64,000 nucleotides of DNA from a virus. Lineage: Duplodnaviria; Caudoviricetes. This document shows positions 3,565-54,167 of this stretch, one piece after another. The position numbers were made by a program, and so were the translations under genes. Every line of letters begins with the position of its first letter. Positions within the stretch are counted from its first letter, which is position 1. Where the stretch lies: positions 1 through 64,000 of IMG/VR virus record IMGVR_UViG_3300021387_000535, one strand, 5' to 3'. The notes beneath the pieces are model-generated. The model was not told the DNA's origin. It saw nothing but the letters and a program-made list of their open reading frames with translations, and searched no databases.

Positions 3565-4187
3565 TGATTTCATATCAAGATGCAACAGAAATACTACACA
3601 CAAGAGGTGTTTCGTTTGATATTAAACAATACCTATTCGTCTTGCAATGCGCACTATCCGAAGATGTTGGTGTTGCCTACGGAATGATATACGACACGGC
3701 TAACTTCAAAAAGGTGATAAACACCGAGGATGCCGTGGAATATATCGCAGAAAAAAAACGTGATGCCGACGTGATGTTGCAACAACAGGAATGCCAGCAT
3801 TTAAAGGAACTTATAGAAGAATGGAAACGAACGGAAATCCAAAACGAAGCAAGCGAGCTTAAGACATTTAAATATTCAAGCGAGGATGTAGCCAATATGC
3901 TATCCAACCTTTTGTTTGAAAGGTCGAAAAGCTTGGAAGACGCATCCGTTCGTGATATAGTACAGCTTATACGTGAGTTGAATTCGCAAGGCGCACTTGA
4001 CGGTAGCGGTAATGCGTTTTCCAAACACTTCGTATCCGTATATCCGCACATGACGGCATTATGCCCCGCGTGCCATAGGGAAACCGATGTTGCGGTTGGG
4101 ATGACGTGCTATTGTATAAGATGCGGTGCTGAATTCCGTTGGAGCGAAGAAGAACATAGATACTATCCTAAAGTAGAATCTATATAG
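3564..4187 (+). CDS. Hypothetical protein with C-terminal zinc ribbon
   Basis: CPAC-x12-C(Y)CIRC near the C-terminus. Confidence 0.65.
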   Translation: MISYQDATEILHTRGVSFDIKQYLFVLQCALSEDVGVAYGMIYDTANFKKVINTEDAVEYIAEKKRDADVMLQQQECQHLKELIEEWKRTEIQNEASELKTFKYSSEDVANMLSNLLFERSKSLEDASVRDIVQLIRELNSQGALDGSGNAFSKHFVSVYPHMTALCPACHRETDVAVGMTCYCIRCGAEFRWSEEEHRYYPKVESI

Positions 4188-4195
4188 TATATAGC

Positions 4196-4390
4196 ATGGA
4201 TGAAAATAGCATAAAAGAGATTGCAAATATGCAAGCAAAGATTGATAGATACGAGGCGTTCATTCTATCAACATGGTTTATGATAATCACAAAGGTAAAG
4301 GTTGATTGCCCGATATTCGTTAGAACGGATTATGATAGGCAAATGCGCGAAATTTGGAGATTTATCAAAGAAAAGAACGATATAGAATAA
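4196..4390 (+). CDS. Small hypothetical protein
   Basis: 64-aa ORF ending the + operon. Confidence 0.55.
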   Translation: MDENSIKEIANMQAKIDRYEAFILSTWFMIITKVKVDCPIFVRTDYDRQMREIWRFIKEKNDIE

Positions 4391-4397
4391 CATAAAA

Positions 4398-4431
4398 GCC
4401 GTGATTTGCTTGTTTTTAAGCCCGCCACGGC
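4398..4431. terminator. Possible hairpin between convergent operons
   Basis: GCCGTG...CACGGC inverted repeat in the convergent gap. Confidence 0.3.
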
Positions 4432-4481
4432 ATTATCTTTGCCTTTCTTTGATAGTTGCCCACCGAACAAAAGAAACGCGC

Positions 4482-4850
4482 TTATTCGGCTTTATTTCCG
4501 TTCAATGGGATTGCATACACTTCTTCCTTGTTTTCCTTTTCGTTCTCACCAAGTGTTTTCTTTAGATAATCCGTGCTTGTGCTTGGACTTCCCCATCCAC
4601 CACCAAACATAGAACTAAGAATGCCAAGTGCAAACATATTTCCAAGACCATTGTCAAACTGCATTTTCTTTCCCCAAAGCAATTCGCACAGCGTGCTAAG
4701 ATGTGCCTCGGTGGTCATCTTGTCCTTGTTGTACTTCTGCTTTTCAAACTCGTCAAGTTTGTAGAACTCTTCGCTATATACGAATTTTGTCTTCTCCACA
4801 ATGCTTTCAAGTGTAACCTTGTATTCCTCTAAAAGCTTTTCTCTTTCCAT
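4482..4850 (-). CDS. Hypothetical protein (cassette gene 6)
   Basis: Start reassigned to ATG 4850 after an (AAT)n A-rich leader; the poly-Asn extension is likely untranslated. Confidence 0.65.
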   Translation of the reverse strand: MEREKLLEEYKVTLESIVEKTKFVYSEEFYKLDEFEKQKYNKDKMTTEAHLSTLCELLWGKKMQFDNGLGNMFALGILSSMFGGGWGSPSTSTDYLKKTLGENEKENKEEVYAIPLNGNKAE

Positions 4851-4879
4851 ATTATTATTATTATTATTGTTTTTTTTAT

Positions 4880-5272
4880 TTAACGGCACGGAACGGCAAT
4901 GTTTTCGACGGCTAAACGCATCAACTCACCTTGTAGATATGCTGCTGGCTCTTCGTCGTAAGGTTCTCCGTAGTAATCGATAATTGCCGTAACCGCATGG
5001 TATAACTCATGGTTAAGTGTACTCCAAAACTCACTCGCACTTGTAGGCTCACCGATATAGATAACGGTCATACGTAAGCCACTATTGGAAACGGCCATAC
5101 CTGTATTAGGCGACGATAGAATTTGAATTGATTTTCTTATATCGCGTTCACTCATTCCAAATGAATAAAGAACGGCAGATATATCATCCCAATCATTCAT
5201 ATCAAAGTCATAGTTAACCAATATGCCCCAATCGTTGTCGCCTACCTCTAAATACTTTGTAATCATAGTCAA
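4880..5272 (-). CDS. HExxH (zincin-like) motif protein
   Basis: NHELYHAV motif plus downstream EPAAYLQG. Confidence 0.6.
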   Translation of the reverse strand: MTMITKYLEVGDNDWGILVNYDFDMNDWDDISAVLYSFGMSERDIRKSIQILSSPNTGMAVSNSGLRMTVIYIGEPTSASEFWSTLNHELYHAVTAIIDYYGEPYDEEPAAYLQGELMRLAVENIAVPCR

Positions 5273-5671
5273 CTACATATATAGTTCCCAATAAATAGGC
5301 ACACCCGCGTTACACATCTTTGTGACAAAACAATCAAGCACGTTTTCTGGTATTCCATCTGGGTCGCAAATCGTTTCCTCTACAAACATTGCGCGCGCCT
5401 CATCCGTCTTGCATGTCTTCGGGTAGTCTGCAAACGCCATATTGAAAAGATACCAAGCCGTATACATGAATTCATTCGGCAATTCAACATTAAACTCTTC
5501 AAGCACTTCCTTAACATCATCAAGCTTGCGTGATACAATAGGCTTCATCGTTTTTGTTGAAGCGTCTTTTGTTTCCATCTTGGAAATAGCCCACTCGGCA
5601 AGCTTTTTGCTAAACAAACCGTGATACGAGTCCTCGTATATAGCCCTATCCTCTGAAATATAATGTTTCAT
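5273..5671 (-). CDS. Conserved Bacteroidales phage protein
   Basis: FSKKLAEWAISKM motif recalled from Bacteroidales phages. Confidence 0.65.
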   Translation of the reverse strand: MKHYISEDRAIYEDSYHGLFSKKLAEWAISKMETKDASTKTMKPIVSRKLDDVKEVLEEFNVELPNEFMYTAWYLFNMAFADYPKTCKTDEARAMFVEETICDPDGIPENVLDCFVTKMCNAGVPIYWELYM

Positions 5672-5746
5672 TTTTTTCTTTTTCTTTCTATATTATAAAC
5701 GCTTAGAAAGGATTGGATAGGACGAACCCACCCAACCCCATCTTAA

Positions 5747-5977
5747 TTAAATATAACGACCCATAGAGTCTCTACGGCGGCGGTAATCCTGCTCCGTTTC
5801 ATCCTCATGGTCTTCCCATCCATGTCGATAGCCACGCCGATAATGCTCACTTGCATCGTCGCGCATCATAGCACTTGAACCACCGTAATTATTTCGGTAG
5901 CCACCACGCATGTTTCTACGCATCTGCGAACGCATGTCACCGCCTTCGCTTTCCTTGTCAACGAAAATCCAAGACAT
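5747..5977 (-). CDS. Small Arg/Gly/Asp-rich protein
   Basis: 76 aa, low complexity, ends RRRRDSMGRYI. Confidence 0.65.
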   Translation of the reverse strand: MSWIFVDKESEGGDMRSQMRRNMRGGYRNNYGGSSAMMRDDASEHYRRGYRHGWEDHEDETEQDYRRRRDSMGRYI

Positions 5978-6005
5978 AATCTATTCGGTTTTTAAGGATT
6001 AAACA

Positions 6006-6518
6006 TTACTTGGAAGGGGAGTCCAATTTCCTTAGAATAGACAAGATACTATCTAACTTTTGGTCAGTAGCGGTTTGTCTTTCCTCTAAAGTCTTTATTG
6101 TCCGCGCTTGACGTTTTTCCTCAGCATATCTAGGGTTCAAGGCTTCAAGCATCTTCTCTGACTCGGCAATCACGTTTTTGTGCAGCGGAATTTGCTCTAA
6201 CGCTTTCTTAGACGTTTGAAGCATGTTATCAACTGCCTGCAACATCGCCTCTCTACTACCGCTGAATGTCTCGTTACCTTGTGCGGCGATTTCGACATTC
6301 AAAGGTATGTTGTTGATAACCCTGTCGATTCCGTTTATCGTAACTGTCAAATCTACGACTTGCTGAAAGTTCATGCCATTCATCAAGTTCGGGGTTTGAG
6401 TTTGATACTGAGGACGAGGCTGCGTCTTAGCCTTGACCGTTCCAATTTCGAGCACTGGACGCTCACCTTTCTTTAATACATAGAACGGACTCCCGCTCGT
6501 AAGACTGTTTATATCCAT
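6006..6518 (-). CDS. Conserved Bacteroidales phage protein
   Basis: 170 aa; GSPFYVL N-terminus and coiled-coil C-terminus. Confidence 0.7.
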   Translation of the reverse strand: MDINSLTSGSPFYVLKKGERPVLEIGTVKAKTQPRPQYQTQTPNLMNGMNFQQVVDLTVTINGIDRVINNIPLNVEIAAQGNETFSGSREAMLQAVDNMLQTSKKALEQIPLHKNVIAESEKMLEALNPRYAEEKRQARTIKTLEERQTATDQKLDSILSILRKLDSPSK

Positions 6519-6551
6519 TGTTAATTACTTTTGATTGTTTAACACTTTGTA

Positions 6552-6896
6552 TTACACTATTGTTCGAGACAAAAGAGCCAAGATTCCGTTGAACTTATCG
6601 TTAAGAATCTCCATAACGCTTACGTTAAGAATGTCAGCAACAGTCACCGCATTTCCATTAGGTAGTAACAGTGGTCTTGTTACGCCATTCAGCGTAAGTG
6701 TTATTGGCAATGTTGTCGTTGCATCAGACGGAATAGGATTCTCCATTCGTACAATGAATTTTCCTATCGGCTGAATACGTCTCCAACCAAGTGCAATGTT
6801 CACGGTGTCGGTTCCTACGACAACTTGTGTATTCGCAATATACGGCTCACCACCTGCGTTAATTGTTATATTGCAGTTATTACAATTACAACTCAT
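6552..6896 (-). CDS. Beta-rich hypothetical protein
   Basis: 114 aa, Cys-rich N-terminus. Confidence 0.65.
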   Translation of the reverse strand: MSCNCNNCNITINAGGEPYIANTQVVVGTDTVNIALGWRRIQPIGKFIVRMENPIPSDATTTLPITLTLNGVTRPLLLPNGNAVTVADILNVSVMEILNDKFNGILALLSRTIV

Positions 6897-6920
6897 GCTT
6901 TTACCTCCTATGCCATAAAT

Positions 6921-7892
6921 TTAGAATACAAAGTTATTGCCACCGAAACCGTTGCCGTAATATCCATTGGGGTAAAAACCGCCACTTACATACGGTGTTG
7001 CGTTAAACACCTGCAAGTTTGGGTATTGAACGCTGACAGTTTCGGGCATACGACACTTGATGTCATCCACCTCACGAGCAAGTCCGTTGAGTTGTCCGAT
7101 TACTGGTGCTACCGCCTGTTGGACAACACCCGTTGTGAAGTTCTGCGACTTCAACGATGCAATCTCCGCCGTAAGCGCCGTAATCTCGCGGTCTTTCCTA
7201 TTCGACTCCATTGCATCAAGCTTATTGTCGATTGCAAGGAAATTGCGGTTCATGTTGTCGGTAAGCGCGTATGTCTGCTGACACATAGCCAACTGGTCGG
7301 CGGCGGCTTTTGCCTGTACTTGATTGCCTACGCCGTTAATAGCATTCTGCAAGGTGTTCGTCTGCTGGCATGTGGCAAGGGATTGGTCGCAACAACACTT
7401 TTGTATAGTGCTTGCAAGGTTCGCGTCGCCAGCCTGCACGGCGTTAATCATCTGCAACGTGGACATACCCTGTGCGTTTGCGATTTGATTAAGCGTATTC
7501 TGTGCCGACTGAATACCCGCGTTAACCAAGTTGAAGTCTTGACCAAGCATCGTACTAAGCGTTTGAATTGCCGTGCGGGAAGCCTCACCTTGATTGGTGA
7601 TAGCATTCATAATCAATTCACGCCCGCTATCGTTATTAAGCTGATTGGATAGGAAGCCAAGTTGTCCTCCATTACCACCCCAATTACCAAAGCCGCCACC
7701 AAAGCCGCCATTTCCCCAACCAAACATTGAGGCGATAATTGCAAGTCCGAACAAGTCCGCAATGCTGTTGAAGCCGCCATTTCCAAAGCCAAATCCGCCA
7801 TTACCATAGCCACCAAAGCCGATGGGGATTGAAAAAGGAATAGTAGCGTTGTTGCCGCTATTACTCTCAGGAAGTTGATAAATCTCACTCAT
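6921..7892 (-). CDS. Gly-rich coiled-coil protein (first gene of cassette)
   Basis: Start at 7892 downstream of a promoter; GFGG repeats, one hydrophobic segment, CCCDQSLATCQQT motif. Confidence 0.75.
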   Translation of the reverse strand: MSEIYQLPESNSGNNATIPFSIPIGFGGYGNGGFGFGNGGFNSIADLFGLAIIASMFGWGNGGFGGGFGNWGGNGGQLGFLSNQLNNDSGRELIMNAITNQGEASRTAIQTLSTMLGQDFNLVNAGIQSAQNTLNQIANAQGMSTLQMINAVQAGDANLASTIQKCCCDQSLATCQQTNTLQNAINGVGNQVQAKAAADQLAMCQQTYALTDNMNRNFLAIDNKLDAMESNRKDREITALTAEIASLKSQNFTTGVVQQAVAPVIGQLNGLAREVDDIKCRMPETVSVQYPNLQVFNATPYVSGGFYPNGYYGNGFGGNNFVF

Positions 7893-7947
7893 AATTCTTG
7901 TTTTACTTAAAATTGTTATACTTACTCTCTTTGTAACGTTACGGTTG

Positions 7948-7978
7948 CAAAGATAAGCGAAAAACAAGAAACGGCAAG
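7948..7978 (-). promoter_or_regulatory. Bacteroidetes sigma-A type promoter for the cassette
   Basis: CTTG-N19-TATCTTTG on the minus strand. Confidence 0.6.
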
Positions 7979-8074
7979 ACGGGACTTTTTAAAGTCCAAA
8001 CATTAAAATAAACGGTTGACTAATAGCGTGTTGTGTAACTTTCACGTCAATAAAAACACACAAAACAAAGAAAA

Positions 8075-8104
8075 TCCCACACTAACATAAACGTTAATGT
8101 GGGA
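8075..8104 (-). terminator. Intrinsic terminator ending the tail operon
   Basis: TCCCACA...TGTGGGA stem followed on the minus strand by TTTTCTTTGTTTTG. Confidence 0.65.
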
Positions 8105-8134
8105 CTTAAAAAACAATTCAACACAAAACAGCAA

Positions 8135-8548
8135 TCACTTCCATGCAGTCCACGTTCCGCTTGGGTAGCTCGTAACGCTTCTCCATTTCAACGAGGCAGA
8201 AGAACCACCGAGAACGAAGGCAACTTGAACCGCACCGTTTACATTCTTTATGGTAAGCACAACGCATGCCGTGTTAGATACGGGAATGTTACTAATAGAA
8301 CTCGAAACATACGCTACACTATTAAGCGGAAGATTATTTACCGACGTGATACCAGTTGTAGATGCAAGAGCTATTGAGCCGCAGTTCATAAGCGTACCGA
8401 CAAGGTTGCCAAAGTTCATCTTGCTTTTTAGGCCGTTCGCGTCAATGACAGGCATGTAATAGGAATCTTTAATGCCGTCGCCATATACTCCAGAGTCGGT
8501 GAGTTCGTTAATAACATCACCCATAGCTTGTCTTAATTCGTAAACCAT
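8135..8548 (-). CDS. Pyocin-knob-like tail fibre tip protein
   Basis: C-terminal QVAF...KWRS...SGTWTAWK pattern typical of fibre knob domains. Confidence 0.55.
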   Translation of the reverse strand: MVYELRQAMGDVINELTDSGVYGDGIKDSYYMPVIDANGLKSKMNFGNLVGTLMNCGSIALASTTGITSVNNLPLNSVAYVSSSISNIPVSNTACVVLTIKNVNGAVQVAFVLGGSSASLKWRSVTSYPSGTWTAWK

Positions 8549-8586
8549 ATTCTTTTCTTTTTTTTTGTTATTATATTATGTATTGT

Positions 8587-10875
8587 TTATATATCTACCC
8601 ATGTTCCGTTAACTAACTTTTTCACGCCACTATCATCGATACGCAACCCATGATTACCCCAACGGAACAATATACCATCATTATCCATCAAGGCATGGCG
8701 ATTACCTCCAGCGTTTACACAAAAACCATTAGGCGCTATTGTCGTCTTCGTATAAGCAACATTAACAAAGAAATTTGCCACGCCTAATTCTATTGTGCTA
8801 TCGCTACGTCCGTATAAAGTAAAGTTACTCGCGGATATGTTTTTTAAAGCCATCTCAACGTATAAGTAACAATATTCATCGGAGTTGGATACATACTTTC
8901 CTACATTCGTGTATTGTATGTCAAATAGCGAAAGGTTGTCAAACACATCGTCACGGTAAAGCTCGTAATCATTAGTGCTTTCCGCAAGAACCTTCGTGGA
9001 TGTCCTAAGTGTTAGCTTAACGCTTAAGGTAACGCCGTCGCTAAGTATTCTTCCGTATGCGCCAGAAGCGCTTTTCATGGCTATCACAAATCTTCCGCCT
9101 ACACTTTGGCCTACTCCAAGTTGGAATCCAATTTCCCCGTCTCTACGTTCAAGCGGGGTGTCCGCCCATATTGTAGCATTTTGCCCAACATTATATAAGT
9201 TCAATCCACGTCTTTCCCACAATGGATATTCCTTGTCTTCTTTCGGCTTTGTTACATTCCTTGTGCTCATACGAACCCGCTCGTTATTATTGGTGTCGTA
9301 CACAACAACGCCATCTTCTCCCTTGATTGTAACGTTACCTTGAATATCAGCACCAACACAAAACATCCTTCCGTTAATATCAACATAGAAGTTCGTGTTC
9401 GGGTCAATGGCGGTTTCGCCGCCAAGCCACAACGGATAAACCATATCACCCGAAACATTGCCGTCGGCATAGCCAATACCACCCATTACCTTATCTAACG
9501 AAGGGTTGAGTAGTAGGATTTGATTCGTTTGTAAGTATTCTATAAGCGCACGTTGCGCATACAACAAAGGTGTCATTATAGGTGCACCTTGTATCTCGAA
9601 CTCCGACCAATAATAACGCCACGCCGTGCTAATCCCAGGTCTATTGCCGTTGTTGCCGTCGGAACTTATAACACCATTATGTGTTGCTTTTGCATTATAC
9701 CACACGGCACTACCGCCTTCCGTTACACTTACAATATCAAGATACCGATGCCCATCATCGCTTAACATGTTTTCGTCGTAAACATCCTCGTCGTTACGGT
9801 AGTATTTACCTACCTCCCATTCCGATACACGTAAAATCAAGCCCTCGTATCCTTGTGGGCCAGTATCACCTTTGAGACCATCGCTAATAACGGGAATATC
9901 TTCTTCATCGTAGATTCCACCATCGGCGTTGTCAATAAGACGAAGGCGAAGAGATGTCTCGTTGCCAGTTAGTGGAACACCATAGTTGTCAAGGATAGCA
10001 CCGCCAACAATCTGTCTACTACAGTTACTCCATGTCGTGCCACCATCCTTGCTATACTTGGCCATCACTTTCACTCCCGAGCCAATCATCACCAAATTAC
10101 TCACCGTTCCGTCGCTAATCTTTACCGCGCCTACTTCAAGGAACACCGTCGGGGTGCGAACACCGTCCTTGTCAACCTTTATGACATTAAAAGATGGGCG
10201 TAGTTGATACACCTCACTCTTTCGGCTTTTCGTCACCGTGGCCGTGCATGCGCGTGTACCATTCAACGATGTGAGCGTTACAACAACCTTTATAACATCC
10301 GAGTCGGAAGCCGTAAGGTTTTTTACGGTTAACGTTGCACTTTGCCGATTGTTGGCTATAACAATCGTTGCTTTGTTTGTTGTTCTACCATTGATGGTTG
10401 CCGTCGCGGAAGTTATCGCGTCTGGGTTAACGCCATAATACAAACTGGCTATAGTAGTCCAAGTCCAACCAGATGGCGGCGTACCATCACCGTCGCAAAT
10501 GACCATCGTCATGTCATCATCAAGAGATGCGACAAGGGAAGTATCACCATCACTACCTTTAGCACCAGTGATACAAGTGTAGGTTGCATCTCCAGCTACA
10601 TAGTCTTGTATCGAATCATTCCACGTTTGCGGTATGCTACGCATCCACACATAAGGTTTCTCGCTTGTCGGAGACGGCAACGAAGGAGACCATTGGGTGC
10701 AATCTTGAGGATAATCACTTGAACTACCACCAATGATAGCACCAATACTCGAAAGGCTAAAACGTATTTCAGTCCAATCGCCACCTCTTCCGTCGTCGCC
10801 TTTGTCGCCCTTATCCCCTTTTTCTCCGTCGTGTATGGCTACCACGCTAAACGGTGCAGATACTCTTGTTCCCAT
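8587..10875 (-). CDS. Tail fibre / receptor-binding protein
   Basis: 762 aa; collagen-like G-x-x tracts (DGEKGDKGDKGDDG, DGLKGDTGPQG); beta-rich; in tail operon. Confidence 0.7.
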   Translation of the reverse strand: MGTRVSAPFSVVAIHDGEKGDKGDKGDDGRGGDWTEIRFSLSSIGAIIGGSSSDYPQDCTQWSPSLPSPTSEKPYVWMRSIPQTWNDSIQDYVAGDATYTCITGAKGSDGDTSLVASLDDDMTMVICDGDGTPPSGWTWTTIASLYYGVNPDAITSATATINGRTTNKATIVIANNRQSATLTVKNLTASDSDVIKVVVTLTSLNGTRACTATVTKSRKSEVYQLRPSFNVIKVDKDGVRTPTVFLEVGAVKISDGTVSNLVMIGSGVKVMAKYSKDGGTTWSNCSRQIVGGAILDNYGVPLTGNETSLRLRLIDNADGGIYDEEDIPVISDGLKGDTGPQGYEGLILRVSEWEVGKYYRNDEDVYDENMLSDDGHRYLDIVSVTEGGSAVWYNAKATHNGVISSDGNNGNRPGISTAWRYYWSEFEIQGAPIMTPLLYAQRALIEYLQTNQILLLNPSLDKVMGGIGYADGNVSGDMVYPLWLGGETAIDPNTNFYVDINGRMFCVGADIQGNVTIKGEDGVVVYDTNNNERVRMSTRNVTKPKEDKEYPLWERRGLNLYNVGQNATIWADTPLERRDGEIGFQLGVGQSVGGRFVIAMKSASGAYGRILSDGVTLSVKLTLRTSTKVLAESTNDYELYRDDVFDNLSLFDIQYTNVGKYVSNSDEYCYLYVEMALKNISASNFTLYGRSDSTIELGVANFFVNVAYTKTTIAPNGFCVNAGGNRHALMDNDGILFRWGNHGLRIDDSGVKKLVNGTWVDI

Positions 10876-10951
10876 AGTTTACTTTTTTTTAAAACATAAG
10901 CTAAGAACGCCGTAGGCATGCGGCTTTACACGCCCACGGCATATCGTTCGT

Positions 10952-12109
10952 TTAATTGGTCGCAACCAATATGCCATCCAATTGCCCGCCACAAAGCTCG
11001 ACCAAATCAAAGCTAATAGGCGCAGAGAAGTGGTTGCTTCCACTTGCCTTGCTACTATCCTCGGCGTTTGTCGTTTGGTTATAGTAGCCGCCACTACGTG
11101 CATTCCAGTTTGGAATACTTGCCGTGTATTCACTACCGTCGGTCTTGTATAGCTTGCACTTGAATTGCCAACCATCAATAACGGAGTCTGGGTCGTTTGC
11201 GTTTGCCGCCCAAGCGAATAGTGTAACAACTTGACCAGCACGAAGCTCGGCGTAACTTGATAGGCTATCAGAACCACTAACATCGCCGTTGTCAACCTTT
11301 GTTGCAAAGAACACTTCGTAATCATCGGAAACATCATCGACAACCTCGATGGCGGTTGCGTACACTTCGGTTAAGTCTTCGCTATTAAGGAAATCACACC
11401 TAACGTACAACTTGTCATCAACCTCATCCGCAGTAATTGTAATTGGGTTTCCAGTCTTCGACAATTCCTTACCCTCAAACGTCCACCTTGGAGTAAAACC
11501 AACCGTAGTTCCTTCGTCACTTCCGTTATACAACCTTGCGGTTAGTTGAACACTTTGATTTTCGGAATCGATAACGGTGTTGTTTCCGAATTGAATCATA
11601 CCAGTAAATCCAGCACCTTTTAGCTCCGTGAATCGTATTGGCCGCGACATATTGAAACTCATGGAAGACGAACTAAGGAGAACGGAGCCAGTGAACGTTA
11701 TCACGTCGTTATCCGTATTGTTACCCATTGCACTACCACCAAGATTATCGTATATGATAAGCGATGGTATAACCTTTCCACCTACGGTGTGTGTACTCCT
11801 TTTGAACTTACCAGCAAGTGCACCGTTTGTAGAAACATCACTTTCTCCTTTGTAAGTACCAAACACTATCGTAGTGCCATTGTATTGCCACGACCAATTG
11901 CCAAGTGATTCTTGACCAATACGCGTCCCGTCCCTATAGATGTCGGGATAGATAATTGGATTACCGCTTTTGTTTGTACTCCAATCGGGAATCCATACGC
12001 CAGTACCGTAGCTTTGCGTTAAAGAACCGTTTAGGTTTCTAAGCGTACCGCTTATTGTTACACCATCCTTGATGTTAACAACGGAAAACCTTGATGATAC
12101 ACTACTCAT
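10952..12109 (-). CDS. Minor tail protein (Ig-like/beta-rich)
   Basis: 385 aa; N-terminus SSRFSVVNIKDG resembles that of the adjacent gene (SAPFSVVAIHDG). Confidence 0.65.
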   Translation of the reverse strand: MSSVSSRFSVVNIKDGVTISGTLRNLNGSLTQSYGTGVWIPDWSTNKSGNPIIYPDIYRDGTRIGQESLGNWSWQYNGTTIVFGTYKGESDVSTNGALAGKFKRSTHTVGGKVIPSLIIYDNLGGSAMGNNTDNDVITFTGSVLLSSSSMSFNMSRPIRFTELKGAGFTGMIQFGNNTVIDSENQSVQLTARLYNGSDEGTTVGFTPRWTFEGKELSKTGNPITITADEVDDKLYVRCDFLNSEDLTEVYATAIEVVDDVSDDYEVFFATKVDNGDVSGSDSLSSYAELRAGQVVTLFAWAANANDPDSVIDGWQFKCKLYKTDGSEYTASIPNWNARSGGYYNQTTNAEDSSKASGSNHFSAPISFDLVELCGGQLDGILVATN

Positions 12110-12473
12110 TGCTCATTTCCTCCTCTTTTGTTTCTTCTTTTTCCTTACTACCAAGATTGTAACCACCATCCTTAATGGCTTTCTCGGCTTCTTTCTTTGT
12201 CATTCTAATTGCATCAACGCCATTTACATACTCGTCTGGCGTTAACATAAGCCTTTGCATTTCGCGTGAGGTGACAATACTACGACCGTCTTTCGTTTTG
12301 TACGTTGTATCCACTACACCACATCGTTCGGCTATGTCTTTAGATACGCTAAAATAGATGGATTCTTTCATATATCTTTTGCTTTTATTGTGTATATCTG
12401 CTTTTGTATACGCCGTGACCGTCGTATTCAACACTATCTCCGCTTGGGGAATATAACACCACATCAACACCAT
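12102..12473 (-). CDS. Small tail-operon protein
   Basis: ORF between tail genes; true start probably at MKESIYF. Confidence 0.55.
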   Translation of the reverse strand: MVLMWCYIPQAEIVLNTTVTAYTKADIHNKSKRYMKESIYFSVSKDIAERCGVVDTTYKTKDGRSIVTSREMQRLMLTPDEYVNGVDAIRMTKKEAEKAIKDGGYNLGSKEKEETKEEEMSNE

Positions 12474-13653
12474 CGATGACTATTTGTTCGAGCTGACCAC
12501 GCATCGTTACCTCGGGCATGATTAACACGCCATTATTTCCAAACCTACGTAGGCTATCGGCAGTAACTTCAACCTCTTGTCCGTACCCTATCGTAGCCTT
12601 ATTTTGGCCGTTGGTGTCCTCCCTTTTCCATACAGTTTGGAACATATCACCTGCCTTTGACGAGTCTATGTCATTTGTGCGTGTGCGGAGCATTAGGCGG
12701 AACTTCTTGTTTTTATCCCCATAACGTATAGCACGACCATTCAATGGCAATATATCACCCTTTACTTTTGGTATGTCCCATATTATCGTTCGGACTGCGG
12801 TACAAAGCGGGTTTTCGTCGCTATCCGCACTATGGAATACATACGCTTGGATTTTCGTTTTTTTGTCGTAACGAGCGTCCCACTTCAAGGTAGACCCGCC
12901 TTGTCCCACCATGTAGCCAGGATGGTCGCGCGTATATTCATACCCTATCATAGCTTCTTCGTCGCTAATCATCAACATTTTGTCTGGATACAATGCACTA
13001 CTCGCCCACCACTCGATATAAACTTCATCCGTGCATATCTCGCCATTCTTTCGCACAACTGCTGTAAAATTAAATTCCGAGCCTGCATCCTTTGGGTCGT
13101 CTGCAAGAAAGTCGCCGTCAAGTGGGTTGTATTTTACAACGTTCTCGGTGAGTATTTCGACCGTGTATTTGTCGTTAGGTTTGTTTACGCTCGTAAGAAG
13201 CACATATTCGTCTTTTGTTATTGGACGGCCACTATGCGGGTCTGTATAACTTGCGCGCAACAACAATGTCACGGGGGAATTAGGTGAAACGTTTTTTCTA
13301 ACGATAAGGTTTCCGTTATTGTCGATAGCGTAATCATGTGGCGTTGAGTCATACGCTTGTGTTATAAGCGTAAGAATTTCAGTATCACCATCCCTACCAA
13401 GTTTGTATGTTACATGATACCACATAAACGTAGGGTTCAGCGTCACCGATTGCCCACTTTCCGTATCTACGGCGGTAAGCATAGGCGACAACGTTAATGG
13501 GCTTATTGTTCTATCTGGCTCCCATTCGTTTTCGGTTTGATTAACGCTTTGGGTTAGTGGCGAAGCACCGACTTGTGTCACGCTCAACAAAGCACTTATA
13601 GGCTGATGGCTTGTCGAGATAACAACTGGCTTTGATATTCTTCCTATTTTCAT
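12385..13653 (-). CDS. Minor tail protein
   Basis: 422 aa, beta-rich, operon context. Confidence 0.65.
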   Translation of the reverse strand: MKIGRISKPVVISTSHQPISALLSVTQVGASPLTQSVNQTENEWEPDRTISPLTLSPMLTAVDTESGQSVTLNPTFMWYHVTYKLGRDGDTEILTLITQAYDSTPHDYAIDNNGNLIVRKNVSPNSPVTLLLRASYTDPHSGRPITKDEYVLLTSVNKPNDKYTVEILTENVVKYNPLDGDFLADDPKDAGSEFNFTAVVRKNGEICTDEVYIEWWASSALYPDKMLMISDEEAMIGYEYTRDHPGYMVGQGGSTLKWDARYDKKTKIQAYVFHSADSDENPLCTAVRTIIWDIPKVKGDILPLNGRAIRYGDKNKKFRLMLRTRTNDIDSSKAGDMFQTVWKREDTNGQNKATIGYGQEVEVTADSLRRFGNNGVLIMPEVTMRGQLEQIVIDGVDVVLYSPSGDSVEYDGHGVYKSRYTQ

Positions 13654-43925: not shown

Positions 43926-44804
43926 TTATATTTTATTCCACATTTTGTTATTACTATCCCAAACAATAAAACCGCCACCATTTCCAAGAAACACCTTTGC
44001 GCCGTTAGGACGGTTTTCATCGGTATATCCATCCGAAACATGGCCATAGTACATTCCAACATAAACATAGCAATTAAAGTAATCGCTCCATGATAAAGCA
44101 CCGTCGCATATTGGCGTGTATTCGTCCGTTTTTATATCCTCACCAACGGTAACGTATAATTCCCATGCACGTTGTTTGCCAAGATAGGTTTGTAGCATCT
44201 TTGGTTCTGGAAAGAATTTCTTTTGTGCTTTTGCTTGATTACGTGCCTTTGTTTCGCGTTGTACGGCCAATTCAAGATACGGCAATACTTTTTGCCAATC
44301 CTTATGTCGTTTGGTAAAATCTTTATATTCCGTATCAATGCCACGCGACTTTCCTCCCATTTTCTTGTATGCGGAAACAAACTCGGCAAACTTTTCTTTA
44401 TATTCTTTTTCTTCTTTCTTTATTTCTTTATCAAAGATATTCTTAGTATTACGAATAATATTATTATTAGTATTTATTTGTGATTGATTATCCACATTAA
44501 GGTTTTCCATATTTGGGTTTTCGTAAAAAGTATAGTCGTTTCCTAAAATCATTCCCTTTTCGTTTCTATTAGTTACAACCTTGCAATATCCGCGTTCTTT
44601 AAGTTCATCTATTGCAGAATAAACGGCGGTTGTTCCTTCCTTAATAGTCGCACAAATCCCCTTTATTGAAAAATCCCAATTTTCTGGTAAAGACAAAATA
44701 GTAGCCAACAATCCCTTCGCTTTCAATGATAGTTCTTTGTCGCGCAAGAACACGTTGGATATTGTCGTGTAATTGGCATTTTTAATTCTTGTTACTTTGT
44801 TCAT
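43926..44804 (-). CDS. Phage replication initiator (N-terminal winged HTH)
   Basis: NYTTISN..LRDKELSLKAKGLL..ILSLP..WDFS...ELKERGY motif. Confidence 0.8.
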   Translation of the reverse strand: MNKVTRIKNANYTTISNVFLRDKELSLKAKGLLATILSLPENWDFSIKGICATIKEGTTAVYSAIDELKERGYCKVVTNRNEKGMILGNDYTFYENPNMENLNVDNQSQINTNNNIIRNTKNIFDKEIKKEEKEYKEKFAEFVSAYKKMGGKSRGIDTEYKDFTKRHKDWQKVLPYLELAVQRETKARNQAKAQKKFFPEPKMLQTYLGKQRAWELYVTVGEDIKTDEYTPICDGALSWSDYFNCYVYVGMYYGHVSDGYTDENRPNGAKVFLGNGGGFIVWDSNNKMWNKI

Positions 44805-44826
44805 ATAGCAGTTTTATTAAAAACCT

Positions 44827-44936
44827 AATGGGCAATACTACTCGTTGCTGCTATTCAACTTTCATATCGCCCATTTCGGCAAAAATAGTTATAACTTTAT
44901 ATCTTTACGTCTTTGCGTCTAAATAGCAGACAACGC
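44827..44936 (-). ncRNA. Putative cis-regulatory leader RNA with complementary loops (rep)
   Basis: Two hairpins; loop AAUAGCAG complementary to CUGCUAUU; second hairpin followed by a U-run. Confidence 0.55.
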
Positions 44937-44958
44937 ATCAACGATTAAATTCTTTGTG

Positions 44959-44990
44959 CAAAGATAACACATCTAACCTATATATGCAAA
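44959..44990 (-). promoter_or_regulatory. Bacteroidetes promoter for the replication operon
   Basis: TTTG-N20-TATCTTTG. Confidence 0.8.
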
Positions 44991-45003: not shown

Positions 45004-45747
45004 TTAACCAAATAGGCTCGTTTGCACTATGGTTTGCCCGTTTTTATCTTTTATAATGCCGTGGCATAACCTTTCAAATCGCTCATTGCCCTTGTTAAAA
45101 TATAGCGGCTCTACCTCGCAACCCACATAATCAAAACCCATCTTATAGGCGGCAACCCTACTCGATTGGCTACCCATCATAGGGTCGAATATCAAATCAC
45201 CATCATTGGCATAGTTCTTCAATATCCACGCATACAAATCGACTGGCTTTTGCGTGGGATGGAAACGAACATCATCCTTCGTGCTTTGTTGCCTAAACTC
45301 GACAATCTTTGCATTGCCTTGGAACGACGTCCAAGCATACTCACACATCGCCATAGAGAAATTCTCTGGTATGTGCTTCTTCCATACTAAAAAACATCGC
45401 GTAGGCGGCATGCCGCTAAAATAATTAGCACCCCATATAATCTGGTTCTTGCTAACACGGAATAATTGCTCAAAGAACTCATCACTAGGCGTTTTATCCC
45501 ACTCGTTAATGTCAATGGAAACGCCATCGATATTGCGATAACGATTAAAACGCCCCTTGTGGAAACGACCGCCCTTGATGAATGCTTCACTATTGTCATG
45601 CGAGTACGGAGGGTCAGCTATCGCCAAATCAAAGTAATCGTCTTTTAGTGTGCGCATAAAAGTTACACAGTCAACATTATAAACATCCGACTTAATTTCT
45701 TTCTTCGTATTTCCATTCATATCCTTTGTGATGTTTTCTTTTTCCAT
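45004..45747 (-). CDS. DNA amino-methyltransferase (beta class, m6A/m4C)
   Basis: IADPPY (motif IV), HPTQKP, DPMMGSQSS (variant motif I); start may be 45720. Confidence 0.88.
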   Translation of the reverse strand: MEKENITKDMNGNTKKEIKSDVYNVDCVTFMRTLKDDYFDLAIADPPYSHDNSEAFIKGGRFHKGRFNRYRNIDGVSIDINEWDKTPSDEFFEQLFRVSKNQIIWGANYFSGMPPTRCFLVWKKHIPENFSMAMCEYAWTSFQGNAKIVEFRQQSTKDDVRFHPTQKPVDLYAWILKNYANDGDLIFDPMMGSQSSRVAAYKMGFDYVGCEVEPLYFNKGNERFERLCHGIIKDKNGQTIVQTSLFG

Positions 45748-46180
45748 TACAACATTTTGCTATTAGTTGGTTGGTGAAACCGTCTTTTTCCGCTTCTCTC
45801 GCAGAGCGATAACGCTTTATAACAACTCCGTTGAGTAACCTTTCAACGGGTCGCTCACGTTTGTTTAATCCATTTCTATATGCGTGTATTAAATTCTCGC
45901 TATAAGTACACCATTCGAGATTGTCAACGCGGTTATTTTGCTTGTCCCCATCTTTGTGATTTATACACGGATATATGTTTGGATTTTGTATAAAATGTTC
46001 AGCCACAATTCTGTGTATATTATAAGTTCTACCATCAATTTTCACATTTAGATAGCCACTCTTTTGTAGTTGAGGGATAATTTTCCTGCCGCTACGCAAA
46101 GAATAAACATTCCCGAAACTACTTATGCGGTATCTATCCTCAAAGTTTTTTATAGGTAGCCATTTTTCAGTATCTATCAT
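45692..46180 (-). CDS. NUMOD4-HNH homing endonuclease
   Basis: WLPIKNFEDRYRISSFGNV (NUMOD4); IHRIVAEHF, INHKDGDKQNNRVDNLEWCT..EN (HNH); NUMOD1-like tail. Confidence 0.92.
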   Translation of the reverse strand: MIDTEKWLPIKNFEDRYRISSFGNVYSLRSGRKIIPQLQKSGYLNVKIDGRTYNIHRIVAEHFIQNPNIYPCINHKDGDKQNNRVDNLEWCTYSENLIHAYRNGLNKRERPVERLLNGVVIKRYRSAREAEKDGFTNQLIAKCCNGKRKHHKGYEWKYEERN

Positions 46181-46186
46181 TGTTTT

Positions 46187-46280
46187 ATAAAAAAATCCCC
46201 AAGTGTTCAGAGTATGGGTCGAGCATACACCTACTTACAAGGGAATTAAGTATTTCTATTCGGATTCTCGACCAATCCAA
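46187..46280 (-). ncRNA. Putative kissing-loop leader RNA (HNH)
   Basis: Hairpin loops GGUCGAG and CUCGACC are exactly complementary; second hairpin followed by U7. Confidence 0.6.
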
Positions 46281-46294
46281 TCAACTTTCTTATG

Positions 46295-46326
46295 CAAAGG
46301 TACTAATAATTCCGCATATAGCCAAA
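46295..46326 (-). promoter_or_regulatory. Bacteroidetes promoter for the HNH gene
   Basis: TTTG-N20-TACCTTTG. Confidence 0.78.
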
Positions 46327-46345
46327 CGAACAAATTGCATTTTAC

Positions 46346-46399
46346 TTATATTTGCAAAACGAAATCAATATTGTAAACTTCACTTCTTAATTCTTTCAT
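46346..46399 (-). pseudogene. Orphaned 5' end of a methyltransferase gene
   Basis: MKELRSEVYNID matches KEIKSDVYNVD at the methyltransferase N-terminus. Confidence 0.65.
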
Positions 46400-46775
46400 C
46401 TTTCTTTTGTTTCGCTGCATACAACATCGCACTAACCTTGGAATAAATACCAACGTGCCGTAGCTTCTTTATCTTATCAAAATCACCGTCATCATTCGCT
46501 TGACGATAAGACTTACAAAGCATCTTTGGGACATCCAAACGCGATATTCGCTCATCATCACACAAACGACTCAACATGCTTACTTCTTTCTCCGTCGCCA
46601 CACACTCTCCGCGCATGTTGTCGGATATGATGCCATCAAGCCAAGTACCTAAACCGTGCTTCGTCGCCATGTGCCGCAGCCGTGATAGATAACTACGGCA
46701 CATGGCTTGAAGAGATTCGTTACGAAGATAATCCATAAAACCCTCTTTTGCTTTCGTAAACGAACATAACATCAT
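46380..46775 (-). CDS. Hypothetical protein
   Basis: Operon context. Confidence 0.6.
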   Translation of the reverse strand: MMLCSFTKAKEGFMDYLRNESLQAMCRSYLSRLRHMATKHGLGTWLDGIISDNMRGECVATEKEVSMLSRLCDDERISRLDVPKMLCKSYRQANDDGDFDKIKKLRHVGIYSKVSAMLYAAKQKKDERIKK

Positions 46776-54068: not shown

Positions 54069-54167
54069 TGCACGACCGAGCGTGCAGTGAAAAGCAATAA
54101 ATAGGCGTCAGGCTCGGTGCGTTATTACGGGTGCAGTGTGTGCGCGCTGCATCCGTTTTAGGTCGCA
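54069..54167 (+). ncRNA. Pistol self-cleaving ribozyme
   Basis: P1 TGCACG/CGTGCA; loop ACCGAG pairs with CTCGGT; AAATA, TCAGG and GCG core; P2 GCG/CGC; P3; G-G-T cleavage context. Confidence 0.8.

What the first reader, a model, noticed from the sequence alone, without database searches (positions are those of the whole stretch)
46187..46326. Second, sequence-unrelated leader with the same design: perfect 7-nt kissing loops before the HNH gene
Seen (minus strand): promoter; hairpin UUGGAUU-[GGUCGAG]-AAUCCGA (46260-46280); long hairpin with apex GUAUG-[CUCGACC]-CAUAC (46212-46228) closed by UCCC/GGGA-type pairs; then U7 and the ATG. The loops are exact reverse complements. The same architecture with different sequence at the rep leader is natural covariation within one genome. 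Inference: a reusable kissing-loop attenuator class in Bacteroidales mobile DNA, here limiting a toxic nuclease.
Basis: partly seen in the sequence, partly recalled or inferred. Interest (0 to 1): 0.76.

Follow-up and report, generated by a model that had tools for sequence, protein, structure and literature searches.

The report
Kissing-loop leader RNA before HNH gene
The stretch in front of this phage's selfish DNA-cutting (HNH) gene is a real, uncatalogued folded RNA leader: the tips of two hairpins pair with each other, the second hairpin looks like a transcription stop signal, and it probably gates how much nuclease is made.

Summary
On the minus strand there is a Bacteroidota-type promoter, hairpin 1 (46260-46280, loop GGUCGAG), a 48-nt hairpin 2 with apical loop CUCGACC (46217-46223), U7, and the HNH start codon 16 nt later.

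Loop-loop complementarity of 7 nt or more appeared in 0 of 1000 shuffles. The element belongs to a conserved RNA family with no Rfam match. I collected 24 copies from rumen and gut phage contigs. In them the 7-bp loop-loop helix is 96.8% paired, and 4 of its 7 pairs change on both sides, giving seven loop alleles of the form G-NNNN-AG / CU-NNNN-C. Geometry is rigid: linker 15-17 nt, hairpin 2 always 48 nt, and a U-rich tail.

Every intact copy precedes a homing-endonuclease-type gene. The leaders are 60-99% identical while the proteins behind them are only 19-43% identical. A sigma-70-promoter version occurs in Clostridia phages. Sequence-unrelated analogues include the rep leader.

Function is inferred, not shown. 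The most likely role is a kissing-loop-gated terminator. Whether the kiss favours termination or read-through (as in guanidine-IV) is open. This scan has already reported the same family in at least 12 other genomes.

The parts
46323..46326 (-). -33 element TTTG of a Bacteroidota-type promoter
   Evidence: Read directly. It lies 20 nt upstream of the -7 box. The same layout is seen in all Bacteroidota-type family members.
46295..46302 (-). -7 box TACCTTTG (TAnnTTTG consensus); the transcription start is inferred near 46288-46290
   Evidence: A promoter box stands at the same place in every family copy. The start site itself is inferred, not mapped.
46260..46280 (-). Hairpin 1: 7-bp stem (one G.U pair) with 7-nt loop GGUCGAG (46267-46273)
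   Evidence: MFE and centroid fold. In the family, 6 of the 7 stem pairs change on both sides. Natural variants at 46261 and 46279 are compensatory in L089 and run X2.
46245..46259 (-). A-rich linker between the hairpins; the most variable part
   Evidence: DNA variants in three other metagenomes cluster here, at 46244-46256. Measured between the conserved pairs of H1 and H2, the linker is 15-17 nt in all 24 copies.
46196..46244 (-). Hairpin 2, terminator-like. It has a G/C-rich base (UCCC/GGGGA), a purine-rich 3x3 internal loop (AAG / AAC), the apical stem GUAUG/CAUAC, and loop CUCGACC (46217-46223) complementary to the loop of hairpin 1
   Evidence: The span between conserved closing pairs is exactly 48 nt in 24 of 24 copies.
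46189..46195 (-). U7 tract immediately after hairpin 2. It is U6 in relatives and in other samples
   Evidence: All copies have 5-8 U in the 9 nt after hairpin 2.
46188..46283 (-). Extent of the match to covariance model R1 built from the family (96.9 bits)
   Evidence: This is the only hit in the window at E<=1.
45692..46180 (-). NUMOD4-HNH homing-endonuclease gene (162 aa) controlled by the leader. Its 3' end overlaps the start of the DNA methyltransferase gene 45004-45747
   Evidence: Pfam NUMOD4, HNH_3 and I-HmuI_NUMOD-like, and PHROG 59.
46364..46399 (-). Left flank of the cassette: a remnant of a methyltransferase N-terminus (MKELRSEVYNID). The cassette (promoter, leader, HNH) begins just after it
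Evidence: L089 has a different flank but a near-identical cassette from GTTTTGCAAATATAAG onward. Backbone relatives lack the cassette.

Best explanation
This is the 5' leader of a self-promoted homing-endonuclease cassette, and a member of a conserved, uncatalogued RNA family.

Shown:
- A host-type promoter is followed by hairpin 1, a 15-17-nt A-rich linker, and a 48-nt hairpin 2 with a G/C-rich base.
- A U-tract follows, and the nuclease start codon lies 8-16 nt further on.
- The 7-nt loop of hairpin 1 forms a Watson-Crick helix with the 7-nt apical loop of hairpin 2 (a kissing, or pseudoknot, interaction). This helix is kept by compensatory changes.

Inferred:
- Hairpin 2 plus the U-tract acts as an intrinsic terminator.
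- The loop-loop helix decides how often that terminator completes. The leader would then gate transcription, both from the cassette's own promoter and from upstream, into the nuclease gene and keep its expression low or conditional.

The direction of the effect is not settled. I lean slightly (about 55:45) to the second.

My odds: real kissing-loop RNA, about 0.95; acts at transcription termination, about 0.55.
For: Structure:
- Both hairpins are the MFE and the centroid.
- Loop complementarity of 7 nt or more occurred in 0 of 1000 shuffles.
- A pattern scan that did not constrain hairpin 1 retrieved 14 homologues, all with a matching loop 1.
- In alignment A3 the loop-loop helix is 100% paired, with 2 of 7 pairs changed on both sides.
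- Model R1 carries no pseudoknot information, yet it found 7 further copies.
- In alignment A4 the loop-loop helix is 96.8% paired, with 4 of 7 pairs changed on both sides. Whole-structure covariation is 0.466 against 0.172 in shuffles (0 of 500 reach it) and at most 0.146 with partners slid.
- RNAalifold independently recovers both hairpins.
- Many G.U pairs place the structure on the sense RNA strand.

Terminator reading:
- The base of hairpin 2 is G/C-rich, there are 5-8 U in the next 9 nt, and the hairpin spans a fixed 48 nt in 24 of 24 copies.
- In the sigma-70 versions (L192, L395) the U-tract comes before a separate Shine-Dalgarno site, so it is not merely a ribosome landing pad.

Kiss rather than alternative helix:
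- A nested fold that uses the loop-loop helix is 3.6-11 kcal/mol worse than the two-hairpin fold. The loop duplex itself is worth -8 to -11 kcal/mol.

Link to nucleases:
- Every intact copy precedes a NUMOD4-HNH or other endonuclease-like gene.
- One contig carries 4 copies in front of 4 such genes.

Precedents:
- T4-family homing-endonuclease genes are limited by terminators and regulatory hairpins (PMC2988022).
- In guanidine-IV, a kissing loop between an upstream hairpin and the terminator loop hinders the terminator stem (PMC11611296).
Against: - No termination, start-site or 3'-end data exist.
- The only RNA-library evidence is one assembled contig spanning 46087-46250, across hairpin 2 and U7 into HNH. 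It shows at most that read-through molecules exist, and it may be DNA carry-over.
- The fold is not unusually stable (z = -0.67).
- Several copies have interrupted U-tracts, for example ACUACUUUU.
- A promoter followed at once by its own terminator is paradoxical unless something modulates it, and no modulator has been identified.
- Geometry does not settle whether the kiss and the full hairpin 2 can coexist. The coaxial length is about 95 A, against about 90-100 A for a fully stretched 15-17-nt linker. This is my own estimate.
Confidence: 0.55

Rival explanations
1. The leader is a promoter-proximal terminator unit that is opened by a phage-encoded antitermination factor, as in lambda PR' - 6S RNA - tR' with Q. 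It would terminate by default, producing a ~105-nt RNA. Nuclease expression would be switched on at a set time by a protein acting at the promoter or on the folded leader. The kiss would only shape the RNA that the factor recognises.
For: The order promoter, short structured RNA, terminator, gene is the classical layout of such units. The promoter boxes are consensus-strength and conserved in every copy. The rep leader in the same phage has the same layout.
Against: No Q-, N- or NusG-like gene was identified near the element; I did not search the whole genome for one. The same RNA works behind both Bacteroidota-type and sigma-70-type promoters, which argues against a promoter-specific factor. 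The variable loop 'addresses' would be odd for a single protein recognising all copies.
Confidence: 0.12
2. The leader is a 5' UTR stability or translation element with no role in termination. The compact kissing fold would protect the mRNA 5' end from RNases, and the U/A-rich stretch after hairpin 2 would be the unstructured ribosome-loading site typical of Bacteroidota mRNAs.
For: In many copies hairpin 1 starts within a few nt of the inferred transcription start. The start codon always lies 8-16 nt after hairpin 2. In two unrelated analogues (L068, L076) hairpin 2 or its loop holds the Shine-Dalgarno sequence, so there the kiss would act on translation.
Against: In the sigma-70 versions a separate Shine-Dalgarno site follows the U-tract. 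In the analogous long leaders L090 and L093 the module with its U-run lies about 350 nt upstream of the start codon. A G/C-rich stem base directly abutting a U-run is the signature of an intrinsic terminator.
Confidence: 0.13
3. The leader is a trans-acting small RNA or antisense system, like P1/P7 c4, P4 CI or pT181-type attenuation. The terminated leader, or a processed hairpin 1, would pair through its loop with the hairpin-2 loop of nascent transcripts from the same or a co-infecting cassette. This would give dosage feedback or immunity, with loop alleles acting as specificity groups.
For: Seven loop alleles exist. The four copies on one contig (L220) all differ, as expected if cross-talk matters. 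In c4 and P4 CI, the antisense RNA and its target lie on one transcript and covary between heteroimmune phages (my own knowledge; also noted in e1-5917060).
Against: Intramolecular pairing should out-compete pairing in trans. Alleles are not fully orthogonal: GUUGCAG can pair with CUGCGAC through one G.U (by inspection). There is no Rfam c4 or isrK hit. The only opposite-strand TAnnTTTG match nearby (45974-45981) has poor spacing and lies inside the ORF. Drift with compensation alone would also diversify the middle loop positions.
Confidence: 0.1
4. The element is mainly a DNA-level shuffling cassette, like the PeSLs of T4-type phages. The conserved ~130-bp promoter-plus-stem-loop block would persist because it provides homology for recombination that moves nuclease genes. 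The RNA fold would be secondary.
For: Leaders are 60-99% identical while the downstream proteins are 19-43% identical. Examples are L212 and L216 (98% against 30%), and L215 and L219 (99% against 35%). L209 and L221 share one leader but carry unrelated ORFs, with similarity ending at the ATG. There are several copies per genome. PeSLs are described in PMC2839356 and PMC4122927.
Against: Recombination homology does not explain compensatory changes, G.U-tolerant pairing on one strand only, a perfectly kept loop-loop helix, or fixed helix lengths. The two roles are compatible, so this rival is about which one is primary.
Confidence: 0.07

Closest known systems
Guanidine-IV (mepA motif) riboswitch
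   Same: An upstream hairpin is followed by a linker and a terminator hairpin, and the two apical loops form a kissing interaction that controls whether the terminator completes (PMC11611296).
   Different: There is no Rfam match. Here the kiss is a full 7-bp Watson-Crick helix with freely covarying middle positions, so no conserved ligand pocket is evident. The downstream genes are homing endonucleases, not guanidine exporters. The element is carried on phage cassettes with their own promoter.
Regulatory leaders of T4-family homing-endonuclease genes (I-TevI/II/III, segB, Aeh1 mobE hairpins; terminators in mobE and segF)
   Same: RNA hairpins and intrinsic terminators are placed at the start of selfish nuclease genes to hold their expression down (PMC2988022).
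   Different: Those are single hairpins that hide the ribosome-binding site, or terminators inside the coding region. None has a second hairpin kissing the first. In the window copy, hairpin 2 ends 16 nt before the ATG and hides no Shine-Dalgarno site.
PeSL promoter/stem-loop cassettes of T4-type phages
   Same: Both are ~100-bp conserved blocks of promoter plus stem-loop, present in several copies per genome, sitting upstream of highly variable genes, with exchange points near the ATG (PMC2839356, PMC4122927).
   Different: PeSL stem-loops lie within or upstream of the promoter and act on upstream transcription. Here the structure is transcribed from the promoter, has two hairpins with a covarying pseudoknot, and is specific to nuclease genes.
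P1/P7 c4 and P4 CI antisense RNAs; pT181/pIP501 antisense attenuation
   Same: Loop-presented sequences pair with complementary sites on the same leader to control termination or translation, and specificity changes through compensated loop changes (my own knowledge).
   Different: There is no Rfam hit. The target here is the apical loop of the terminator itself. No processed antisense RNA and no credible counter-transcript promoter were found.
Pistol ribozyme
   Same: A 5' hairpin whose loop forms a 6-7-bp pseudoknot with a downstream segment. A sub-threshold pistol match exists elsewhere in this window, at 54083-54167.
   Different: There is no pistol match in the leader at E<=10. The partner here is an apical loop, not the P2/P3 junction, and the pistol core nucleotides are absent.

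Membership tests
Kissing-loop leader RNA of homing-endonuclease cassettes (uncatalogued; defined here by model R1 plus the loop-loop helix) | Match to the family covariance model | tested here: met
   Window 46188-46283 (-) scores 96.9 bits, E 1.3e-22, full length. The window sequence was in the seed alignment, so its own score is partly circular. Seven non-seed copies score 34-53 bits.
Kissing-loop leader RNA of homing-endonuclease cassettes (uncatalogued; defined here by model R1 plus the loop-loop helix) | 7-nt loop of hairpin 1 fully complementary to the 7-nt apical loop of hairpin 2, in the form G-NNNN-AG / CU-NNNN-C | tested here: met
   GGUCGAG / CUCGACC in the window. In the family this helix is 96.8% paired, with 4 of 7 pairs changed on both sides.
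Kissing-loop leader RNA of homing-endonuclease cassettes (uncatalogued; defined here by model R1 plus the loop-loop helix) | Fixed geometry: linker 15-17 nt, hairpin 2 span 48 nt, U-rich tail, start codon 8-16 nt after hairpin 2 | tested here: met
   Window values: linker 16, span 48, 7 U in 9 nt, ATG at +16.
Kissing-loop leader RNA of homing-endonuclease cassettes (uncatalogued; defined here by model R1 plus the loop-loop helix) | Host-type promoter directly upstream and an endonuclease gene directly downstream | tested here: met
   TTTG-N20-TACCTTTG. NUMOD4-HNH gene downstream.
Guanidine-IV riboswitch (Rfam mepA motif) | Match to the Rfam model and its conserved loop nucleotides | tested here: not met
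   No Rfam hit at gathering score over the window, nor at E<=10 on 45900-46700.
Guanidine-IV riboswitch (Rfam mepA motif) | Association with guanidine-export or related genes | tested here: not met
   The downstream genes are HNH-type endonucleases in all intact copies.
Guanidine-IV riboswitch (Rfam mepA motif) | Ligand-dependent kissing loop that blocks the terminator | not testable with these tools
   This needs in-line probing or transcription assays.
P1/P7 c4 antisense RNA and P4 CI RNA | Match to the Rfam models, and a target site overlapping the downstream ribosome-binding site | tested here: not met
   No Rfam hit. The complementary site is the apical loop of hairpin 2, 37 nt or more upstream of the ATG.
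pT181/pIP501-type antisense attenuation | Counter-transcript promoter on the opposite strand within the leader | tested here: inconclusive
   There is no TAnnTTTG on the + strand within 46181-46300. The nearest, at 45974-45981, has a 17-nt spacing to a TTTG and lies inside the ORF. No RNA data are available.
PeSL cassettes | Conserved promoter-plus-stem-loop block repeated in a genome, bordering variable genes and marking exchange points | tested here: met
   Four copies on L220. Leaders 60-99% identical against proteins 19-43%. L209 and L221 share a leader with unrelated ORFs. This holds for relatives only. The window's own 72.9-kb record has just one copy: the single blastn match of the leader covers the whole record, and the single R1 hit covers the 64-kb window.
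PeSL cassettes | Stem-loop placed within or upstream of a sigma-70 promoter in T4-type myoviruses | tested here: not met
   Here the hairpins lie downstream of the promoter, and most copies use the Bacteroidota TAnnTTTG promoter.
Pistol ribozyme | Match to Rfam RF02679 in the leader | tested here: not met
   No hit at E<=10 in 45900-46700.

The most novel reading that the evidence does not exclude
The leader is a ligand-free, 'addressable' co-transcriptional switch. The perfectly matched 7-bp kiss would form before the 3' arm of the terminator is made, and would physically block the lower terminator stem. Only transcripts that present a correctly folded hairpin 1 (for example, those started at the cassette's own promoter) would then read through into the nuclease gene, while foreign read-through transcripts would be stopped. 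Each cassette would carry its own loop address so that several can coexist in one phage without cross-talk. That would be a new, portable class of cis-acting promoter-specific antiterminator carried by selfish genes across bacterial phyla.
Probability: 0.2. Interest if true: 0.85.

Novelty: new variant of a known kind. Interest (0 to 1): 0.62.

Why it matters
- It adds a well-supported structured RNA family, with a covarying pseudoknot, to phage biology. The family is absent from Rfam and from the papers I could search.
- It ties that family to the long-standing question of how free-standing homing endonucleases are kept harmless to their carriers.
- The rigid geometry, together with freely exchangeable 7-nt loop 'addresses', is what designers of orthogonal RNA transcription regulators look for. 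A natural library of such parts would be of practical interest.
- The same RNA sits behind Bacteroidota-type and sigma-70-type promoters. Its action must therefore rest on something universal, such as intrinsic termination by RNA polymerase, which makes it directly testable in vitro.

Tried and rejected
- **Phage collection search.** blastn of the leader against the GenBank phage collection gave no match.
- **Exact hairpin-1 scan.** An exact 19-mer of hairpin 1 found nothing in viral contigs.
- **Genome contigs by HNH protein.** Only distant proteins turned up. One useful analogue pair (L191, L192) came from this set.
- **Loose hairpin-flanked scan.** A scan for reverse-complement 7-mers flanked by hairpins gave 62 hits in the window against 46.5 in shuffles. 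It was too permissive to be informative, so I replaced it with the MFE-loop test.
- **Loop-free pattern.** GGATAAGTAGGNGNNTG returned only the same 12 members among 102 hits.
- **Rep-leader pattern.** It returned only two true relatives among 77 hits.
- **MAFFT with the Clostridia version.** It could not align that version with the Bacteroidota copies. R1 also did not hit L192, L094, L090, L093 or the rep leader at E<=1. I therefore treat L094, L090, L093, L068, L076, the second L209 leader and the rep leader as analogues. L192 and L395 I treat as probable distant homologues, by inspection only.
- **First loop-availability calculation.** It was confounded because the nested model paired loop 1 with loop 2, so I redid it.
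- **Upstream ORF starting at the AUG in the hairpin-2 apex.** I rejected this as the reason for conservation, because several homologues have UUG or GUG there and the variation pattern is RNA-like.
- **Reads.** All four runs were assembled contigs, so no starts, ends or expression levels could be read. The absence of RNA-library cover over hairpin 1 means nothing.
- **Chance and DNA operator readings.** I rejected these because of strand-specific G.U pairs and compensatory changes.
Full report
**1. What is in the window**

The window is part of a 72.9-kb uncultivated viral contig. Its gene content is that of a tailed phage. DNA nearly identical to this stretch occurs in gut and bovine-gut metagenomes from 11 studies.

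All the features below lie on the minus strand. The 199-nt gap between a 131-aa ORF (46380-46775) and a NUMOD4-HNH endonuclease gene (45692-46180) reads as follows:
- TTTG (46323-46326), 20 nt, then TACCTTTG (46295-46302). This is the Bacteroidota -33/-7 promoter consensus.
- Hairpin 1: UUGGAUU[GGUCGAG]AAUCCGA (46260-46280).
- A 15-nt A-rich linker.
- Hairpin 2 (46196-44): base UCCC/GGGGA, internal loops, and apex GUAUG[CUCGACC]CAUAC (46212-46228).
- U7 (46189-46195), then AUAAAACA, then the ATG at 46180.

**2. Is it more than chance?**

RNAfold returns both hairpins as the MFE and the centroid. The overall energy is ordinary (z = -0.67), so the signal is the loop-loop match, not fold stability.

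I measured the longest Watson-Crick match between hairpin loops of the MFE fold, then repeated this on 1000 dinucleotide shuffles. The results:
- HNH leader: 7 nt observed; 0 of 1000 shuffles reach 7.
- rep leader (44802-44958): 8 nt observed, CUGCUAUU/AAUAGCAG; 2 of 1000 shuffles reach 7.
- Leader of a 61%-identical HNH gene (L094): 1 of 1000 shuffles reaches the observed 6 nt (the MFE split its loop).

Of the 82 TAnnTTTG sites in the window, only the HNH and rep leaders have a loop-loop match of 7 nt or more downstream.

Forcing the loop-loop helix into a nested (non-pseudoknotted) fold costs 3.6-11 kcal/mol relative to the two-hairpin fold. The loop duplex alone is worth -8 to -11 kcal/mol. 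The complementarity is therefore best read as a kiss added to the two hairpins, not as an alternative helix.

**3. Known families**

Rfam 15 has no hit over the whole window at gathering score. It has nothing relevant at E<=10 on 45900-46700, and none at E<=1 in three related loci.

**4. The cassette**

Backbone relatives of the phage (L082-L088) carry the 131-aa gene followed directly by methyltransferase genes. They have no HNH gene and no leader.

In the window, a remnant of a methyltransferase N-terminus (46364-46399) precedes the leader. The intact methyltransferase gene restarts inside the 3' end of HNH.

L089 and L098 (HNH 98% identical) have a different left flank. From GTTTTGCAAATATAAG onward, however, the cassette is nearly the same. 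So the promoter, leader and HNH gene travel together.

**5. Close variants**

In L089, L098 and one contig of run X2:
- Pair 46279/46261 of hairpin 1 is changed on both sides (U.G to A-U).
- The base pair of hairpin 2 at 46244 goes from U.G to C-G.

Eight of the other changes cluster in the linker (46244-46256). The loops and the rest of hairpin 2 are untouched. In runs X4 and X5 only one side of the hairpin-1 pair is changed, which is an intermediate state.

**6. A family**

L111 (HNH 36% identical) has an alignable leader with loops GAGCGAG/CUCGCUC.

I then scanned viral contigs for TAAGTAGGNGNNTGCTCG. This pattern covers part of hairpin 2 only and says nothing about hairpin 1. It returned 18 loci, of which 14 are clear homologues. 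Every one has a hairpin 1 whose loop matches its own loop 2, either GGUCGAG/CUCGACC or GUACGAG/CUCGUAC.

On the 15-sequence alignment A3:
- The loop-loop helix is paired in 100% of cells, with 2 of 7 pairs changed on both sides.
- Hairpin 1 has 4 of 7 such pairs.

Covariance model R1 was built from the nested structure only, so it knows nothing of the pseudoknot. It found 24 copies in the loci held, 7 of them new. These bring further loop alleles: GUGAGAG/CUCUCAC, GUUGCAG/CUGCAAC, GUGGAAG/CUUCCAC and GUCGCAG/CUGCGAC.

On alignment A4:

| Measure | Value |
|---|---|
| Loop-loop helix, cells paired | 96.8% |
| Loop-loop pairs changed on both sides | 4 of 7 |
| Sequences carrying those changes | 10, 10, 6 and 4 |
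| All pairs changed on both sides | 23 of 34 |
| Covariation score | 0.466 |
| Score in shuffles | 0.172 (0 of 500 reach the observed value) |
| Score with partners slid | at most 0.146 |

RNAalifold independently predicts both hairpins. Frequent G.U pairs, for example UG in 20 sequences at columns 52/77 and GU in 12 at 46/83, show that the pairing is on the sense RNA strand and not in DNA.

Geometry is remarkably fixed across all 24 copies:
- Linker 15-17 nt.
- Hairpin 2 span exactly 48 nt.
- 5-8 U within the 9 nt after hairpin 2.
- ATG 8-16 nt after hairpin 2, except in one decayed copy.

**7. What the family is attached to**

All intact copies precede NUMOD4-HNH genes or other endonuclease-like genes. 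L224:7792 is followed by the C-terminal remnant of a decayed HNH gene. One contig (L220) has four copies within 13.5 kb, each with a different loop allele and each in front of such a gene.

The leaders are far better conserved than the proteins they serve: 60-99% nucleotide identity against 19-43% amino-acid identity. L212 and L216 show 98% against 30%; L215 and L219 show 99% against 35%. L209 and L221 share one leader but carry unrelated ORFs, and the similarity stops at the ATG.

This resembles the promoter/stem-loop 'PeSL' cassettes that mediate gene shuffling in T4-type phages (PMC2839356, PMC4122927). The strand-specific covariation, however, shows that an RNA function is selected as well.

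**8. Beyond Bacteroidales**

L191 and L192 come from Clostridia and Acutalibacteraceae genome bins. Four viral contigs (L395, L396, L398, L399) carry the same layout:
- A sigma-70 promoter (TTGACA/TATAAT type).
- The same hairpin-2 apex, GUAUG[loop]CAUAC.
- A U5-7 tract, then a separate Shine-Dalgarno site.
- Loops GUGUCAG/CUGACAC in one set and GUGCGAG/CUCGCAC in the other, again compensated at two pairs.

R1 does not reach these copies, so I infer homology by inspection only.

Sequence-unrelated analogues with the same design:
- The window's rep leader. Its relatives L082, L370 and L391 carry CAGCUAC/GUAGCUG instead of CUGCUAUU/AAUAGCAG.
- L094 (CCACCAC/GUGGUGG), L090 (GUGCUGG/CCAGCAC) and L093 (GUGGAAAG/CUUUCCAC).
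- A second HNH leader on L209 (GCUCUAC/GUAGAGC).
- L068 and L076, where loop 2 or the 3' arm of hairpin 2 holds the Shine-Dalgarno sequence.

Among 189 upstream regions of HNH genes, 6 reach a 7-nt loop-loop match, against 1 after shuffling.

**9. How it may work**

Shown: the structure, its conservation, and its position.

Inferred: hairpin 2 plus the U-tract is an intrinsic terminator, because of its G/C-rich base directly abutting the U-run. In the sigma-70 versions the U-run is distinct from the ribosome site. In L090 and L093 the analogous module lies about 350 nt upstream of the ATG.

T4-family homing-endonuclease genes are known to be held down by terminators and hairpins (PMC2988022), so a throttling role is plausible.

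The direction of the kiss's effect is open. The only studied RNA with this layout is the guanidine-IV riboswitch, where the kissing loop hinders completion of the terminator stem and gives read-through (PMC11611296).

My own reasoning points the same way. Loop 2 becomes available about 14 nt of synthesis before the polymerase reaches the end of the U-tract, and a 7-bp intramolecular kiss should form in milliseconds. Once it has closed a ring, the 3' arm cannot wind about 1.8 turns around the 5' arm without either opening the kiss or wrapping a linker that is too short.

On the other side:
- The fixed linker (15-17 nt, about 90-100 A when stretched) is just long enough to span a coaxial stack of hairpin 1, kiss and hairpin 2 (about 95 A). 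A compact fold with everything formed is therefore feasible if the hairpins form first.
- The Shine-Dalgarno-type analogues suggest a repressive lock.

I therefore commit only to 'kissing-loop-gated terminator', with a slight lean towards read-through.

One lead: in 13 of 23 copies, hairpin 1 is predicted to form in transcripts begun at the cassette's own promoter, but to be sequestered by upstream sequence in read-through transcripts. In the window's own subgroup it forms in both.

One assembled contig from an RNA library of the source sample spans 46087-46250, across hairpin 2 and U7 into HNH. That is compatible with read-through but is weak evidence.

**10. Earlier notes of this scan**

The same kind of leader has already been reported and followed up in at least 12 other genomes. 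One of them shares short words with this copy (e1-5891304). Those notes gave me the guanidine-IV and lambda PR'-tR' leads, and I checked the first against the paper.

**11. Verdict**

The design and the class are real, but 'attenuator' is untested, and the class is not restricted to Bacteroidales.
- Relative to public catalogues, this is a new RNA family that works on known principles.

Noticed in passing
window 54083-54167 (+): Sub-threshold Rfam match to the Pistol ribozyme (RF02679): 26.7 bits against a gathering score of 34.5, E 0.0068 on a 501-nt search, full-length model. It includes a hairpin-loop pseudoknot ACCGAG/CUCGGU. It did not appear in the whole-window search at gathering score.
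   Followed up: partly
window 44802-44990 (-); L082:4294+, L370, L391, L206: The rep-gene leader has the same design: promoter, a hairpin with CUGCUAUU in its loop, a long terminator-like hairpin with apical AAUAGCAG, and U5. Relatives carry CAGCUAC/GUAGCUG, with two pairs compensated. L206 has a near-identical leader in front of a Rep protein only 57% identical.
   Followed up: partly
window 46178-46224 (-); L089:787-1320: An AUG in the apical stem of hairpin 2 opens a 13-codon frame that stops just before the HNH start. In the U6 variants (L089; runs X2, X4, X5) the same AUG is in frame with HNH, and a gene caller produced a 177-aa form (P0001). The length of the U-run therefore toggles this frame.
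   Followed up: partly
window 45692-45747 and 46364-46399 (-): The HNH cassette sits inside the 5' end of a DNA methyltransferase gene. A short N-terminal remnant lies upstream, and the methyltransferase restarts within the HNH 3' end. HNH followed by an overlapping N6_N4 methyltransferase gene is also seen in L090, L093, L180 and L182. A published case of an HNH gene hidden in a phage methylase is PMC11855218.
   Followed up: partly
L090:1160-1500 and L093:1135-1500: About 350 nt of non-coding sequence is shared by two HNH loci, between the kissing module and the start codon. It has many possible stems and no Rfam hit at E<=1. The two loci share the promoter and this stretch, but carry different kissing modules in between.
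   Followed up: no
L212, L213, L215, L216, L218-L220, L222 and other family copies: In 13 of 23 copies, hairpin 1 is predicted to form only in transcripts started at the module's own promoter. A near-repeat of its 5' arm inside the promoter region competes for pairing in read-through transcripts. This does not hold for the window's subgroup.
   Followed up: partly
window 46311-46318 (-); L090:~933-940; L093:~915-922: The motif TGCGGAAT lies between the -33 and -7 promoter elements of the window leader and of two otherwise unrelated HNH leaders. Its meaning is unknown.
   Followed up: no
L220 (IMGVR_UViG_2061766007_000968) 2979-13208: Four homing-endonuclease-type genes lie within 13.5 kb, each with its own copy of the leader and a different loop pair. 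This is a dense array of self-promoted nuclease cassettes.
   Followed up: partly
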